From the human T2T-CHM13v2.0 reference genome, Homo sapiens: DNA of 64,000 nucleotides. Below are positions 43,265 through 49,071 of this stretch, in pieces. Made by a program: the position numbers and the translations under genes. How positions within the stretch are numbered: the first letter of the stretch is position 1; every line of letters starts with the position of its first letter. The notes beneath the pieces are model-generated. The model did not search any database, was not told the DNA's origin, and saw nothing but the letters and a program-made list of their open reading frames with translations. The stretch is from assembly GCF_009914755.1 (NCBI RefSeq), contig NC_060947.1; one strand, written 5' to 3'.

Positions 43265-45667
43265 GCATCTAAAAATTTGGGAGTGGCTTGGGAATTAGGC
43301 AGTTTTGCAAAACCTGGAAGGACTTCAAAGACAGTATCCATAAAAGGCTAAAATTTCTTGAATAGACTGTTTGGAGAAGTCTGAGTTTTGAGGAGGCTAC
43401 CAGTGGGGGGTTAAATAGAAGTAAGGAATATGTTACAGGAAAGTGAAGGAAGAGGGATCTTTGCTAAGTAGTGGCAGAAAGTTTAGCTACACTGTCACCT
43501 GAAATTATTTGGAAAGTAGAAAATATACCAAATGAACTGGATGACCTAGCTAAAGTAACTTCTAGCAAAAGCATTGAAGGTGCTGCCTGGTTGCTTCTTG
43601 TTGCTTATAGCAAAATGTGAAAGGACAGAGACATGCTTAAGGAAGAAATGTTAAACAAAAAGGAGTGCTGGTTTTGGAGATTCCTAGATCCTCCAAGGGT
43701 AAACAATGCCAAAATTAAGAAATAGCCTTGGAACAAAGGTAAAATCCAGGGTACTCTCTGGAAAACATGGTCTAAAAATAAAACTGGAAGTATGACTGTA
43801 AAATCTTTTGTTAAAGCCTCAGAAAGATCCAAGGTCATGCTTCAAAGAGCTGTTCAGTCAAGCAACAGAGCTTTGAAGAAGCTTAAGGGCACTGTCCCTC
43901 AGTAGTCACAGCAGATGTCCAATGTTAGGAAGGGCTTATCTCAAAGATATTTTTGGACAAAGCTTTGGTGTAATGGTGTAATGGGGTAAACCTTAATAAG
44001 AATCAGAGAACACTCACAAAGTTTTAAAGAGAATTATATTTATGGGAACATTTCCAGCCTGAACTGAAAGGGGCAGAGACAATACAAAATGACAAGAGAC
44101 CTTTGGATCTCCAAAATTCTACTGGCAGGAAGAAAGCTGAAAAAATCATGCACCTGGAAACAGAGTGTTTTTTGTGGAAAGGAAAGATGACTCAGAGGAT
44201 AGAACCAAGAGCCCAGGGGGGAGAGCCAAGAGGTGCAGAGAATTATTCCCAGACCGAGTCCTAATCAAGGAACTTGCAACATGTCCTTAGGTATATTTCA
44301 GAATTGTTTATGGAACAGCGACTCCTTTGTGCCTGTTTTCCCCTTTCCTTGTACAGTAATGTCTGTAGAGGTTATTCTACTCATTCCCACCATTGCATGT
44401 TGGGTGTATCCGTGGCCGATATCTTTTCTCTTTGGTTCACAGGTCCTCAGGTTGAGAGGAACTGTACTCCAGAAGCTATACTTAAAGAACTACATCTGAG
44501 GAGCATTATGTGCACCTGGACCTGGACCTGATCTCAGTGATGAGAATCTAGACTTCAAACTGATAGTGTAATGGGATGAGACTTTTAGGGGCCTTGGGAG
44601 GAGTGAGTGTACTTTGCATATGGGAGGAATATCAATAGTTGGTGGAAAGAGGGAGAACTGCAGTAGCTGTGAAATTTGTCCACAAATTTTTTGCTACTCC
44701 TTCCTTTCAAAGGAAGACCCTATTTCCCTTCCCCTTGAGGGTGAGCTGCTTTTACTGTCTTGTTTCTAATGAATAGGATAAAGAAATTCATCAGTGACTC
44801 GCTTCTAACGAATAGAATAAAGCAAAAGTGATTGTGACATTTCAGAGACTAGATCATAAAAAAGACAGTGCGGCTTCCTCTGTGCTCCCTCTCTAGTGGA
44901 GCACTCACTCTGGGGTAAGTTAGTTGTCATGTCCTGATGGCATTCAAGTAACCTATGGAGAGGCCCACAATTTGAGGGACTGAGGTCTTCTGCCAGCAGC
45001 CACATGACTGAGCCATCAGTGAAGCAGATCCTCCAGCTCCATGCAAGCCATCAGGTGACTGCAGACAGTGGCAGATTTGATAGATGAGACTTCTTTCTAG
45101 GCAGGCTGGCCACCCTTTTCTTGAAAGATTCTGTGTGGTTTCTGGCAGCTCTCTGTGTGTGAGCAGGGAGGGGATGGCCAAACTTCCGCTGTCCTGGGCA
45201 GAGCACACCAACATATCTACTCTATCTTTTCCAGGGGAAGGGTGGATTAACTAGCACAGGTCTTGTTTTAGAATGATAGCACCAAGCAAGGAAATTCTAG
45301 GAGGAGTTTTCAAGCTCCTCTACTCTCAATATGGAAGGCTGACTAAACTGGTGACTTTGAGTGTGTGTGGGAGCCACCTAGTATATCTCATGACTCAGAA
45401 CTTACATGAGTCACTTCTAAGGCTAATAATGAGCTTGCAAGGTTAGAAGGGCTGTGTCTCCCTAAAGTCTGCTTTTAGACACACATGCACCAGCCTTGTG
45501 CCTGTTCTAGGATAGGTTGTGTGCTTTGTCTTGGGTACCCTGCTATCACTGTTGAGAAATTTCTCAGTCCACTGGGAGAAGAAAATTGTTCATTTCCATG
45601 CTCACACTTCCTCTGCTCTCTCTGTCCTGATTGGCTAACCATGGTACTGGGGTGAGAAAGCTGAGAC

Positions 45668-46545
45668 TAGTGGTGTTGCTAGAGCGAGGTTGTCTTGACT
45701 TAGAAGAGCTGATTGTGAAATTTTCAGAAATTTTGCTTGCTGATTATTAGTCACAGCCATTATTAAAAATTAATGTACATGGCATGAAGCATATATGGCA
45801 AGATGTTAGTGAATCTAACTGGTGTGTATATGGGTGTTCAATGTGCTATTTTTTCCTATTTTCTGTATGTTTAAAAGTATATATTTATTTTTTAAAATTA
45901 AAAAGGCAACACAAACAAAAAAATTAATGTACATGAACTTACTATTAAATGCATTACATTAAAACATAGATAGCAAATACTCAAAACTAATCAATCACTT
46001 CCTAGTTATTTTACTACACTCTTACCTACACTTTTTTTTTTTTTTTTTTTGAGACGAAGTCTTGTTCTGTTGCCCAGGCTGGAGTGCAGTGGTGCAATCT
46101 CGGCTCACTGCAACCTCTGCCTCCTGGGTTCAAACAATTCTCCTGCCTCAGCCTCCCGAGTAGCTGGGATTACCGGCATGCACCACCACACCTGGCTAAT
46201 TTGCCTGGCAATGTTGGCCATGCTGGCCATGTTGGCAAGGTTGGTCTTGAACTCCTGACCTCAGGTGACCCACCCACCTTGGCCTCCTGAAGTGCTGGGA
46301 TTATAGGTCTTATCTACACTCTTGAAGTTATTTTGTCCATTCTGTATGTATGGTGGAAATACTGAATATACATATAATGGTATGTTCCTGTACTTCTGCT
46401 CAACTCTGCATTCAGTGATACAACATTGATAGCATGAAATCAGCCATTGTGGGAGTATTTGCAGCATAGAAATCAGCAAATGCTACAGGTCTGACTTTTT
46501 TTTCTCAGAAGAGCTGGTTGTTAAGCATTTACCAGTACATCACTG
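45668..46545 (+). mobile_element. MER63-like hAT-Blackjack DNA transposon, containing a short retroposed insert (45782-45918) and AluS (46032-46308, -)
   Basis: Termini tagtggtgttgctag / ccagtacatcactg; gagctgattgtgaaattttcagaaattttgc. Confidence 0.8.
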
Positions 46546-47295
46546 GCTGGCACCCAACTGTTGATACAGACAAGGGTGGACTTCATGGCATCTCACAACT
46601 TTTTAAATTGAACCTTGTTTCAAGAGACTCAGCTAGGTGATCTTCAAACTACAACAAGTCTAAATGGATGAGATTAACATTCTCCTGCTGGAAGGACTCT
46701 GTGAAACCCTGCCTGCTCTTGCAGGTCAGGATAGGGACCATACAGAGCCATGGGTGCTGCCAATCATTCATGCATTCATGACTTAGAAGAATCCTGTCAT
46801 GTACCTCTCCTAGGGCAATTTGGAGGTCAGGTCAGTGGCTGTCCAGTCTGCCTCACCAGGCAAATAGGCATTCTAGAAAGAATTGTCTGAGAGGGATGGA
46901 GAGCAGCTGCTCCATACAGTAACCACAATGACACCATTAATCTCACCCTAGGGTCTTGAGCCTTTGCAAATAATGCTACCTTGGCAAAGAATGGCAGAAT
47001 CTTAAGTTTCAGGGGGTATCTCAATCTGAACTTGTGTGTGGGGCCATCTAGCACTCAAATTTTCCTGCTGGCACTCCCATTATTTATGAAAAAGTAGACA
47101 AGTGGGACTTTGATTCAGTGGCAGGATGGGATCACTACCCACTCCTGCTCAATTGCATCCGGTTGTACAATTCTAGCAGATCCAGGAACTCACAGAATCT
47201 GAACTCAGTAGGCTATTTAGCTTTGTATGCAAGAGGACTAGTGAAAGACAGCATTTCAAGCTGGACTGGGACAGTACATATATTTGGGGCTATCC

Positions 47296-47715
47296 TGTTG
47301 CAGAGGGCACTACATGATGACCAAAGGCTCAGGCTTCCCTTCCATGGTGTAGAGTTGTTGCTGCAAAGAGGCTTCCCAGCCCGGAACTACCACTTCCAAG
47401 CTCCATCGCACCTCTAGGCAAGATCATTTGACCAGCTATTGCCAATACAACAAGTAAACATGACGTGTATCATTTTAGGGCCAAAGTGATTGAGTAACAG
47501 GTGTGTGATTCTTCCCACTTTCATGTGCTTCTGAAACACTAGGGTGACCTTAAAGCCACAAGATGGCAGAGCCATAAGATGGAAATAGCTGGATCCTTTA
47601 GTCACTTGGAAGAGAGTCACAGTCTCTCTAACAGATATGAGAGAAACTTCTATTATGCTAAACCACCAAGATGTGGTTGTTTGTTATATCAACTAGTGTT
47701 ACTTTGATTAATACA
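47296..47715 (+). mobile_element. MLT1J/I-like LTR inserted in the gypsy RT
   Basis: tgttgcag start; aagatggcagagccataagatggaa..ctggatcc; ..gattaataca end; RT reading resumes directly after. Confidence 0.7.
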
Positions 47716-49071
47716 TGCTCTCTGGCCTGTGTACTACTCCAAGTAAATTCTAGGGCCTTTTTATTATTATCCTTCTCAACCTCCTGAACCAAGGAGTGGT
47801 TGTCTATCTCATTCTCTAAGATATTCTGTTTCATTTAGAATGAGCCCTTGATCTGAGTAATCCTGGTACCAACCAAAGACTAAGGGAAATCAGATACCGC
47901 CCCTCCCTCCTTAGGAAATTATTCATTTGGTGATATTTTGAATCATACGCCTCATTTCAGGCTGCCAGGGAGCACACCTGTGCCAGCACAGCCTTAAGAG
48001 GGTCCCCAGCAAAGGCACAATGAACCCAGGTGCCTCGGCCTTACTCCCACCCTGGAAGACAGCCTGACAATCAACCTGCTTGTTGAGGCTTTTGGTGGGG
48101 CAGCATCAGGCCCAGTGTTCTAAGGGGGAAAAAAAATGCAGAACCAAAGATACGCCAGGGAAATCTCTTGGGGACAGTAACCCAAGACTTTGTAATATAC
48201 TGTTATCCTTCCCTTCTCAGGGCCACAAGCCACATTTGCTGTCGGGTAGATATCCTGACTAATGTAGTCCACTTTCTACACTGCCATTTCAGTTCTATTA
48301 CCTGCTGCCCCACTGTCTGATGCTTGCAGGAGCTTCTCCAGTTCATTGACTTGCACCGCTATGTTCTGTTGAATCAAAAACCCACCCATTTTGTGCCTTT
48401 CCCAGAGTCTTCAACTACCATTTGACCCATCTACTGCTTACCTCCATCACATAAACGGTTACAGCAGCTAGTGTTATTTTGATTGATACATGTTCACACA
48501 TGAAGTGTGTTGAACCAGACCCTCAAATAGTAGCCCTGACATTCTGCCTGCTGTGCCAGCAAGACTCTTGAGCCCTCTGACCTCGTTGATAGCCAAGTTT
48601 GATGTCTTACACAGTTCTACCGGGAACCCCTAGCCATTTCAATAATGAAAGACACTGTTTCTCTACTTTCCTGTACCACACAGTACTTGCAGGTCAGTGT
48701 CTTTGAGAACTACAGGCTGCCTGATACCTTGCAGGATGCACCTCTACCAACATATAGTCATTGCTGAGATGGGGAGGGCAGAGGGCTGCTGTCGGCATGG
48801 AACCTGATGTGGTTTTCCTCCTGCTCCATGTTCTACTCACCTTCCCTAAAGCAACCCTGATGCATATGAGAGGACCTGTTCCTGGCCTCATTCCAGATCT
48901 CTGAAACCATTAGCCACACTCACTGCTGCCTGAGTGCCGCCACAGGAGGATGTAAGGGTTTCTCCAGCTCCTGGTAGGCAGTTGGCTCCCTGCTCTCATA
49001 TCATCACCCACTTCACCACTAATAACCACCGACAGACCAGTCCAAAGAAGGAAGCTGAAATAAGAATTGCT

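What the first reader, a model, noticed from the sequence alone, without database searches (positions are those of the whole stretch)
45100..49070. Hidden ancient Ty3/gypsy (sushi-ichi/PEG10/RTL1-like) retrotransposon fossil
Seen by manual translation across stops and frameshifts, all on + and colinear. Possible gag knuckle: ARLEGLCL...C...H....C (45434-45499, weak). Protease: TRVDFMASHNFLN (46570; cf. ALxDSGAxxNFI) and DHTEPWVLPIIHA (46736). RT: PYSNHNDTINLTLG (46912; cf. PHRPYDCAIDLLPG), FRGYLNLNLCVG (47008), FPAGTPIIYEK (47061; cf. SPAGAPILFVKK), DHYPLLL (47130), ED**KTAFQAGLGQYIYL (47233; cf. GDEWKTAFRTRYGHFEYL), SGLCTTPSKF*...LLNQGVVVYLIL*DIL (47721; cf. FGLCNAPATFQ...VVVYLDDIL), QRLRE (47874). 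Integrase: FWWGSIRPSV (48090), TVTQDFVI (48174), PSQGH (48212), VDILTNVVHFLHC (48246), STAYLHHING (48430), FCLLCQQDS* (48542), HSSTG (48610), GPF-like LFLASFQISETIS (48876). Established: PR-RT-IN order and these motifs mark gypsy/chromovirus pol; the lineage is extinct in mammals but gave rise to PEG10, RTL1 and the X-enriched SIRH/RTL genes, most of which lost integrase. Inference: a relic of that ancestral element or a lost domesticated gene. It is non-coding here and may already be partly annotated as MamGyp-type repeat.
Basis: partly seen in the sequence, partly recalled or inferred. Interest (0 to 1): 0.85.

Follow-up and report, generated by a model that had tools for sequence, protein, structure and literature searches.

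The report
Decayed gypsy-type reverse transcriptase fossil
A short, badly decayed remnant of the reverse transcriptase gene of an ancient gypsy-type jumping element really lies here, split by a later repeat insertion, but it is dead DNA of a kind already known in the human genome.

Summary
Partly confirmed. Standard searches saw nothing: Pfam on whole frames and on 50 ORF pieces, tblastn with 33 Ty3/gypsy pol proteins, and phmmer against the PDB. A reverse transcriptase (RT) core is nevertheless real on the + strand. The match runs to 47295 and resumes at 47721. Between the halves lies a TG...CA-bounded repeat, 47296-47715. I showed independently that it belongs to a dispersed family: its 3' end motif occurs 315 times in the genome against 1 for the control, and it aligns to two other copies at E=3e-16 and 1e-8.

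Read across that break with X, the RT core scores E=1.1e-4 among 27,791 window tiles and random pseudo-joins. In a second search its 11 best hits, among 7,497 real and shuffled proteins, are all gypsy pols. An upstream RT block near 47011-47144 fits in position and spacing.

The integrase core (48208-48302) and protease (about 46570) are only suggestive. The gag knuckle, RNase H and the other integrase motifs have no support, and no LTR pair was found. There was no match to RTL1 or PEG10 proteins.

Most likely this is a neutrally decaying gypsy-type pol relic, older than the nested repeat (roughly 10^8 years). Such relics are a known kind (MamGyp-int and others). Whether this copy is annotated could not be checked. 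Interest is low.

The parts
47233..47295 (+). RT core, left half (..KTAF....G.Y.YL...). The match ends at the last base before the nested repeat.
   Evidence: Frame 1 translation. Window-top hit of sub-HMM k=300, E=0.16. Part of the read-through with E=1.1e-4 and of the DP alignments.
47296..47715 (+). Nested repeat, TG...CA bounded, 420 bp, LTR-like. From memory it looks like an MLT1/MaLR LTR; the name comes from no tool. It is not part of the gypsy element.
   Evidence: Its 3' end motif occurs 160+155 times in the genome against 1+0 for the reversed control. nhmmer aligns 47337-47716 to L071 at E=3.2e-16 and 47328-47717 to L075 at E=1.2e-8. Identity is 66% and 65%, K2P 0.45-0.48.
47721..47894 (+). 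RT core, right half (.GL..P..F, VVVYL in place of Y.DD, RLRE). It has the same residue spacing as the reference pols.
   Evidence: Best locus of the whole window, both strands, for RT profiles: 21.8 bits, E=0.077, E=0.099. Read-through tests.
47011..47144 (+). RT N-terminal block (REYL.., .PAG.P.., ..YPL) with frameshifts, one stop and a 9-residue deletion.
   Evidence: Top locus in the window for chromovirus sub-HMMs k=180 and k=200, E=1.2 and 0.96. DP alignment 47011-47810 at 27.7-31.1 bits. The 46886-47144 alignment has 26 of 86 identical. The pairwise score of 66 with P0091 is not above the null tiles.
48208..48302 (+). Possible integrase catalytic-core remnant (..VD.lt..v.f..). Suggestive only.
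   Evidence: Rank 2 in the window for sub-HMMs k=760-800, E=0.26-1.5. 20.3 bits, fourth distinct hit in 192 kb. 9 of 27 identical. Pfam and phmmer found nothing.
46567..46620 (+). Possible protease active-site remnant (.D..ASH.F.). Suggestive only.
   Evidence: Rank 2 in the window for two overlapping sub-HMMs, E=12 and 3.4. DP rank about 12-14. phmmer returned only decoys.

Best explanation
This is the dead remnant of the pol gene of an ancient Ty3/gypsy-type (Metaviridae-like) LTR retrotransposon on the + strand. What can still be recognised is the RT, about 47011-47295 and 47721-47894. A later LTR-like repeat inserted into the RT (47296-47715), so the element is older than that repeat, roughly 10^8 years. 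Since then it has decayed neutrally: stops, frameshifts, small deletions, and probably loss of about 1 kb between the RT and a possible integrase core. It encodes nothing and has no demonstrated function.

Shown: the RT homology and the nesting. Inferred: the age, the neutrality and the gypsy (rather than allied) lineage.
For: 1. The nested repeat is established independently of any RT reading.
2. The RT match stops at 47295 and resumes at 47721, and the profile columns on the two sides are adjacent with none skipped.
3. Read-through with X, searched with phmmer against 357 real and 7,140 shuffled proteins: the first 11 hits are all gypsy pols, the best being P0097 at E=8.1e-5. The first decoy comes at rank 12 with E=1. 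No ERV, L1, RTL1 or PEG10 ORF is among the 45 rows printed.
4. RT-core HMM against 15,942 six-frame tiles, 11,848 random pseudo-joins and the real join: the real join gives E=1.1e-4 at 22.5 bits. The next best hits are its own unjoined right half at 11.1 bits and an unrelated locus at 10.0 bits.
5. Frameshift-aware DP with a chromovirus profile: 23.4-31.1 bits against a null maximum of 20.2/23.5 in 192 kb.
6. The upstream RT block is the window's top hit and lies at the expected spacing.
7. Gypsy traces are known in the human genome (PMC5753468, passages).
Against: - Ordinary tools found nothing: Pfam at E<=10 on 3 whole frames and 50 ORF pieces, tblastn with 33 pols, a full-length pol HMM, and the PDB.
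- Each RT half alone is only E about 0.1-0.5, which is unremarkable across 35-55 sub-HMM searches.
- The significant score needs reading across the break. I chose the frames, the 5 extra bases skipped and the RT-core window after seeing the signal. A correction of about 35-fold leaves roughly 4e-3.
- With the stricter mask (47296-47715) the DP excess over the null is only 3-4 bits.
- Only about 47-137 of roughly 1,100 pol columns are recognisable.
- No LTR pair and no paralogue in the genome.
- BEL, DIRS, spuma-like and ERV-K/L RTs were not, or hardly, represented among the references.
Confidence: 0.8

Rival explanations
1. Chance resemblance: unique non-coding DNA that happens to carry RT-like strings picked out by eye.
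For: No hit with Pfam, tblastn, the full pol HMM or the PDB. The single best frameshift-aware pairwise score (66) is matched by null tiles at 71, 67 and 67. Loose chaining scores are no better than null.
Against: Read-through E=1.1e-4 window-wide, with the best of 27,790 nulls 11 bits lower. 11 of 11 top hits are gypsy pols, ahead of 7,140 decoys. The two halves abut an independently defined repeat and the profile columns are adjacent.
Confidence: 0.08
2. A real RT fossil, but from another retroelement class: an endogenous retrovirus of class II/III, or a BEL or DIRS element, rather than Ty3/gypsy.
For: Only 80-137 decayed residues are available. The motifs .TAF.FGL..P..F and Y.DD are shared by several LTR-element RTs (established knowledge). 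In one search the block 47049-47159 gave weak hits (E=0.22-2.2) to four class-I ERV ORFs. BEL, DIRS and spuma references were not in my database.
Against: In one search no ORF from the ERV, L1 and other loci appears among the 45 best rows, while 11 gypsy pols precede every decoy. Chromovirus-only profiles give the best E-values for the N-terminal block. The review read reports no BEL, Copia or DIRS repeat traces in the human genome.
Confidence: 0.09
3. Remnant of a once-domesticated sushi-type (RTL/SIRH-like) gene on the X that was later lost in the human lineage.
For: It lies on the X, where several RTL genes are located (recalled, not tested). It is single-copy at the sensitivity. It fits chromovirus profiles slightly better than the broad gypsy profile.
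Against: No open frame: 2 stops, 4 frameshifts and a 9-residue deletion in about 137 columns. A repeat inserted into the RT roughly 10^8 years ago. No similarity to RTL1 or PEG10 proteins among the rows printed. No gag signal.
Confidence: 0.03

Closest known systems
MamGyp-int and the other catalogued Gypsy traces of the human genome (MamGypLTR1-3, LTR85/88, LTR104_Mam, X1-X4_LR; Repbase list in PMC5753468)
   Same: An ancient, non-coding, highly decayed Ty3/gypsy-type internal sequence in a mammalian genome. It predates old mammalian repeats.
   Different: I could not compare it with those consensus sequences because no Dfam or Repbase copy was on hand. No paralogue was found in the genome at the sensitivity, so membership of a named family is open.
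RTL1 and PEG10 (domesticated sushi-ichi-type gag-pol genes)
   Same: Descent from the Ty3/gypsy superfamily. RTL1's closest non-mammalian relatives (P0091-P0096, chromodomain-bearing pols) are also the profiles that fit the N-terminal RT block best.
   Different: RTL1 and PEG10 are open and conserved. This locus is broken throughout. Its RT core matches canonical gypsy pols, not RTL1 orthologues or PEG10 ORFs.
Chromovirus-type Ty3/gypsy pol proteins (P0091, P0092, P0094, P0096, P0097)
   Same: The RT blocks come in the same order and with the same residue spacing. The distance from .GL to VYL is identical to P0091, as I counted from the sequences printed.
   Different: The catalytic Y.DD is not preserved. 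RNase H, the zinc finger, the C-terminal integrase and the chromodomain are not recognisable.
ERVL-MaLR (MLT1-type) solo LTR, for the nested 47296-47715 element only
   Same: TG...CA ends, about 420 bp, and a 3' terminal motif shared with 315 genomic sites.
   Different: The family name comes from memory only. No target-site duplication is recognisable (5' flank ..TATCC, 3' flank TGCTC..).

Membership tests
Ty3/gypsy (Metaviridae) LTR retrotransposon | RT domain with gypsy-type motifs and spacing | tested here: met
   Read-through E=1.1e-4 against 27,791 tiles and pseudo-joins. 11 of 11 top hits are gypsy pols ahead of 7,140 decoys. DP 23.4-31.1 bits against a null of 20.2/23.5. The catalytic Y.DD itself is not preserved.
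Ty3/gypsy (Metaviridae) LTR retrotransposon | Domain order PR-RT-RNase H-IN, with integrase after RT | tested here: inconclusive
   PR candidate upstream: rank 2, E=3.4-12. IN-core candidate downstream: rank 2, E=0.26-1.5, 27 columns. RNase H, the zinc finger and the IN C-terminus were not found.
Ty3/gypsy (Metaviridae) LTR retrotransposon | Flanking long terminal repeats and target-site duplication | tested here: not met
   The repeat finder on 42000-52000 (seed 11, at least 40 nt) gave a single 70-nt pair, 42450 and 50833, at 83% identity. I take that pair for L1 pieces, from memory. Decay could hide LTRs of this age.
Ty3/gypsy (Metaviridae) LTR retrotransposon | gag with a CCHC knuckle upstream of pol | tested here: inconclusive
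   phmmer of the three frames of 45100-45667 returned only shuffled decoys. Gag-bearing references were few: the RTL1 orthologues, P0099 and P0110.
MamGyp-int (Repbase/Dfam) | DNA similarity to the family consensus or HMM | not testable with these tools
   No Dfam or Repbase library and no RepeatMasker family names were on hand. The hub's list of the 20 longest masked stretches has none inside 45100-49070.
Domesticated sushi-type genes (PEG10, RTL1, SIRH/RTL) | Open, conserved reading frame | tested here: not met
   No long ORF. There are 2 stops, 4 frameshifts and a 9-residue deletion in about 137 RT columns. Conservation across species was not testable.
Domesticated sushi-type genes (PEG10, RTL1, SIRH/RTL) | Specific sequence similarity to RTL1 or PEG10 | tested here: not met
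   None of the 87 RTL1 orthologues and no PEG10 ORF appears among the 45 best rows for the RT read-through.
Endogenous retrovirus, class I | RT closer to ERV pol than to gypsy pol | tested here: not met
   ORFs of at least 120 aa from the ERV-rich loci L009-L020 and L034-L062 were in the database, and none is among the 45 best rows. Weak hits (E=0.22-2.2) of 47049-47159 to four such ORFs appeared.

The most novel reading that the evidence does not exclude
This is a single-copy, so far unannotated relic of the chromovirus/sushi-like lineage at Xq12. It would be the pol remnant of an element, or of an early domesticated RTL-type gene, that predates the eutherian radiation and was lost in the human line. 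It might still be open or under constraint in some other mammal.
Probability: 0.04. Interest if true: 0.5.

Novelty: new member of a known kind. Interest (0 to 1): 0.15.

Why it matters
It matters little on its own. It adds one more decayed gypsy-type pol fragment to a class already catalogued in human DNA.

Two points have modest value. First, the locus escapes Pfam, tblastn and PDB searches, and becomes significant only when a nested repeat is read across. That is a useful caution about how ancient element fossils are missed. Second, the nesting gives a relative date: the gypsy element is older than an LTR-like repeat whose copies differ by K2P about 0.45.

If the orthologous locus turned out to be open in another mammal, it would bear on the history of the X-linked RTL genes. 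Nothing here points that way.

Tried and rejected
- Pfam hmmscan of three whole frames with X at stops, and of 50 + strand ORF pieces: no PR, RT or IN family at E<=10.
- phmmer against the PDB, with frame 3 and with the right RT half: nothing relevant.
- tblastn of 33 gypsy pols against the window: 101 rows at E<=10, none significant. Among the 80 best printed, only 3 weak noise-level rows (E 4.4-6.7) fall in the region; the best rows lie elsewhere in the window.
- Full-length pol HMM against 3,374 ORF fragments: best in the region was -0.4 bits.
- Averaged-BLOSUM profile DP: the real strand scored 30.1 and the reversed sequence 29.9.
- Pairwise frameshift DP: 66, against null tiles of up to 71.
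- Chaining with cheap jumps went into the linear regime and did not discriminate (at jump 10).
- Whole-genome searches with RVT_1, Integrase_H2C2, RT_RNaseH_2 and P0091 returned only other loci, apparently mostly L1 and ERV copies plus RTL1, PEG10 and NYNRIN (my reading of the places, not named by the tool). This locus was not among the 150 or 40 candidates scored.
- RVP_2 and SH3_Tf2-1 searches did not hit this locus.
- DNA and protein self-searches found no paralogue.
- nhmmer and blastn against ten candidate fossil loci found no DNA similarity.
- In some searches my 'revc' control was by mistake identical to the - strand. The null there is 192 kb, not 256 kb.
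Full report
**What was claimed.**
The motifs were read across stops and frameshifts. The open question was whether they exceed chance.

**Standard searches say no.**
- Pfam hmmscan of the three + frames with X at stops found 0 families at E<=10.
- Pfam on 50 stop-to-stop pieces from 46433-49098 found only two unrelated weak hits.
- phmmer against the PDB gave nothing relevant.
- I collected true references by searching with the human RTL1 ORF. P0091-P0123 are Ty3/gypsy pols carrying RVT_1, RT_RNaseH, Integrase_H2C2 and rve, and some carry a chromodomain.
- tblastn of these 33 proteins against the 64-kb window gave 101 rows at E<=10. None was significant. Among the 80 best printed, only three weak rows (E 4.4-6.7) fall in the region.
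- A full-length pol HMM against 3,374 ORF fragments gave nothing.
- My own frameshift-tolerant alignments with single references gave 66 raw for P0091 at 46912-47112. Null tiles from the same window reached 71, 67 and 67.
- Loose chaining did not discriminate.

**The nested repeat.**
That stretch begins with TG and ends with CA.
- A pattern taken from its 3' end occurs 160+155 times in the genome, against 1+0 for the reversed control. The matches share one terminal sequence.
- nhmmer aligns 47337-47716 to one such copy (L071, E=3.2e-16) and 47328-47717 to another (L075, E=1.2e-8). Both alignments end at the repeat's last base.
- Pairwise identity is 66% and 65%, K2P 0.45-0.48.

So this is a separate, old, LTR-like dispersed repeat. 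From memory it looks like an MLT1/MaLR LTR, but no tool named it. Its 3' boundary is fixed independently of any RT reading. The 5' boundary is approximate by alignment (47328-47337), with TG at 47296.

**The RT core is real.**
- Profile scans of the whole window on both strands put the right half (ending at 47810) first. The left half (ending at 47286) came fourth among RT sub-profiles.
- The RT match runs up to 47295 and resumes at 47721. The profile columns on the two sides are adjacent.
- I read the two halves through inside a script, with X at the break and at stops.
- phmmer against 357 real proteins (120 fetched proteins and 237 ORFs from the fetched L1, ERV and other human loci) plus 7,140 shuffled decoys gave 11 gypsy pols as the first 11 hits. 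The best was P0097 at E=8.1e-5, and the first decoy came at E=1.
- An RT-core HMM was searched against 15,942 six-frame tiles of the window, 11,848 random pseudo-joins and the real join. The real join scored E=1.1e-4 at 22.5 bits. Next came its own unjoined right half (11.1 bits) and an unrelated locus near 6459 (10.0 bits). The left half alone scored 7.6 bits.
- A frameshift-aware DP with a chromovirus profile gave 23.4/27.7 bits with the strict mask and 28.1/31.1 bits when five more bases are skipped. The null maxima were 20.2/23.5 in 192 kb. One of my four controls there was a duplicate.

I chose the frames, the five bases and the RT-core window after seeing the signal. Allowing about 35-fold for that leaves roughly 4e-3.

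**Extension upstream.**
- Sub-HMMs built from six chromodomain-bearing pols put the window's top hit at 47025/47028 (E=1.2 and 0.96). This is the block with .PAG.P.. and ..YPL.
- It lies 184 nt before KTAF, against 219 nt in P0091. The DP alignment shows a 9-residue deletion there.
- Because the position is predicted, I count this block as supported.

**Protease, integrase and the rest.**
- A rival protease-end candidate at 45552-45647 is equally weak and conflicts in order.
- The integrase-core candidate (48208-48302) ranks second for three overlapping sub-HMMs at E=0.26-1.5. It is the fourth distinct hit in 192 kb at 20.3 bits. Only 27 columns align, 9 of them identical.
- If it is real, about 1 kb (RNase H and the zinc finger) is missing between the RT and this core.
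- The gag knuckle, FWWG, STAYLHHING, FCLLCQQDS, HSSTG and the GPF-like string gained nothing in any test.
- No LTR pair was found.

**What it is.**
It is a neutrally decaying relic of a Ty3/gypsy-type pol, older than the repeat nested in it. With K2P about 0.45 between copies of that repeat, I infer an age of order 10^8 years. The rate is recalled and the estimate is rough.
- It is non-coding and lies in the intergenic stretch after YIPF6, by the hub's table.
- The RefSeq enhancers at 45066-45379 lie upstream of everything that I could confirm.
- No paralogue was found by DNA or protein search of the genome, nor among ten candidate loci. Those searches are blind to very old repeats.

**Comparison and novelty.**
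The review PMC5753468 (passages read) lists Gypsy traces in the human genome: MamGyp-int, MamGypLTR1-3, LTR85/88, LTR104_Mam and X1-X4_LR. It ties them to the domesticated sushi genes.
- This locus is therefore at most a new copy of a known kind.
- I could not check Dfam or RepeatMasker names.
- A specific PEG10/RTL1 affinity is not shown. The slightly better fit to chromovirus profiles is only a hint.
- The 'lost domesticated gene' idea is untested, and what can be seen here does not favour it.

Noticed in passing
window 46020-46322: An antisense Alu (poly-T first, about 46033-46309) flanked by a 13-nt direct repeat, 46020-46032 and 46310-46322, with one mismatch. I recognised it by eye; the name is recalled.
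   Followed up: no
window 6387-6650: Inside the YIPF6 3' UTR. On the + strand there are weak RT-like hits (E=0.16 for sub-HMM k=300; 10.0 bits with the RT-core HMM). On the - strand lies the window's top integrase-core DP hit (22.6 bits at 6550; sub-HMM E=0.14-0.49). The opposite strands make noise likely, but this is unexplained.
   Followed up: no
window 41377-41410 (+): The best hit in the window for the integrase zinc-finger/GLLQPLP sub-HMMs, E=0.12 and 0.068. It lies about 5.5 kb upstream of the RT on the same strand and out of order. Given 55 searches it is compatible with chance.
   Followed up: no
L067 (G000:C10:62395500-62405400): tblastn hits of gypsy pols to RT/RNase H (4826-5333) and integrase (6813-7130), beside an Integrase_H2C2 hit of 49.2 bits and a weak SH3_Tf2-1 hit. 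It may be a better preserved gypsy-like or ERV pol fossil. I did not classify it.
   Followed up: partly
L024 (G000:C23:77091895-77095191): An X-linked locus with an RVP_2 hit (20.3 bits, 128-aa open frame). It is 29% identical to P0091 residues 1-86 at E=6e-13. It is probably the protease remnant of a known RTL gene; the name is recalled and was not checked.
   Followed up: no
window 42450-42519 and 50833-50902: The only direct repeat of at least 40 nt in 42000-52000: 70 nt at 83% identity. The second copy lies in a long masked stretch. I take both for pieces of the same repeat family, probably L1 (recalled).
   Followed up: no
window about 49540-49610: A (CA)n/(TG)n microsatellite, seen as the HTHTHT and CVCVCV runs in the ORF list.
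   Followed up: no
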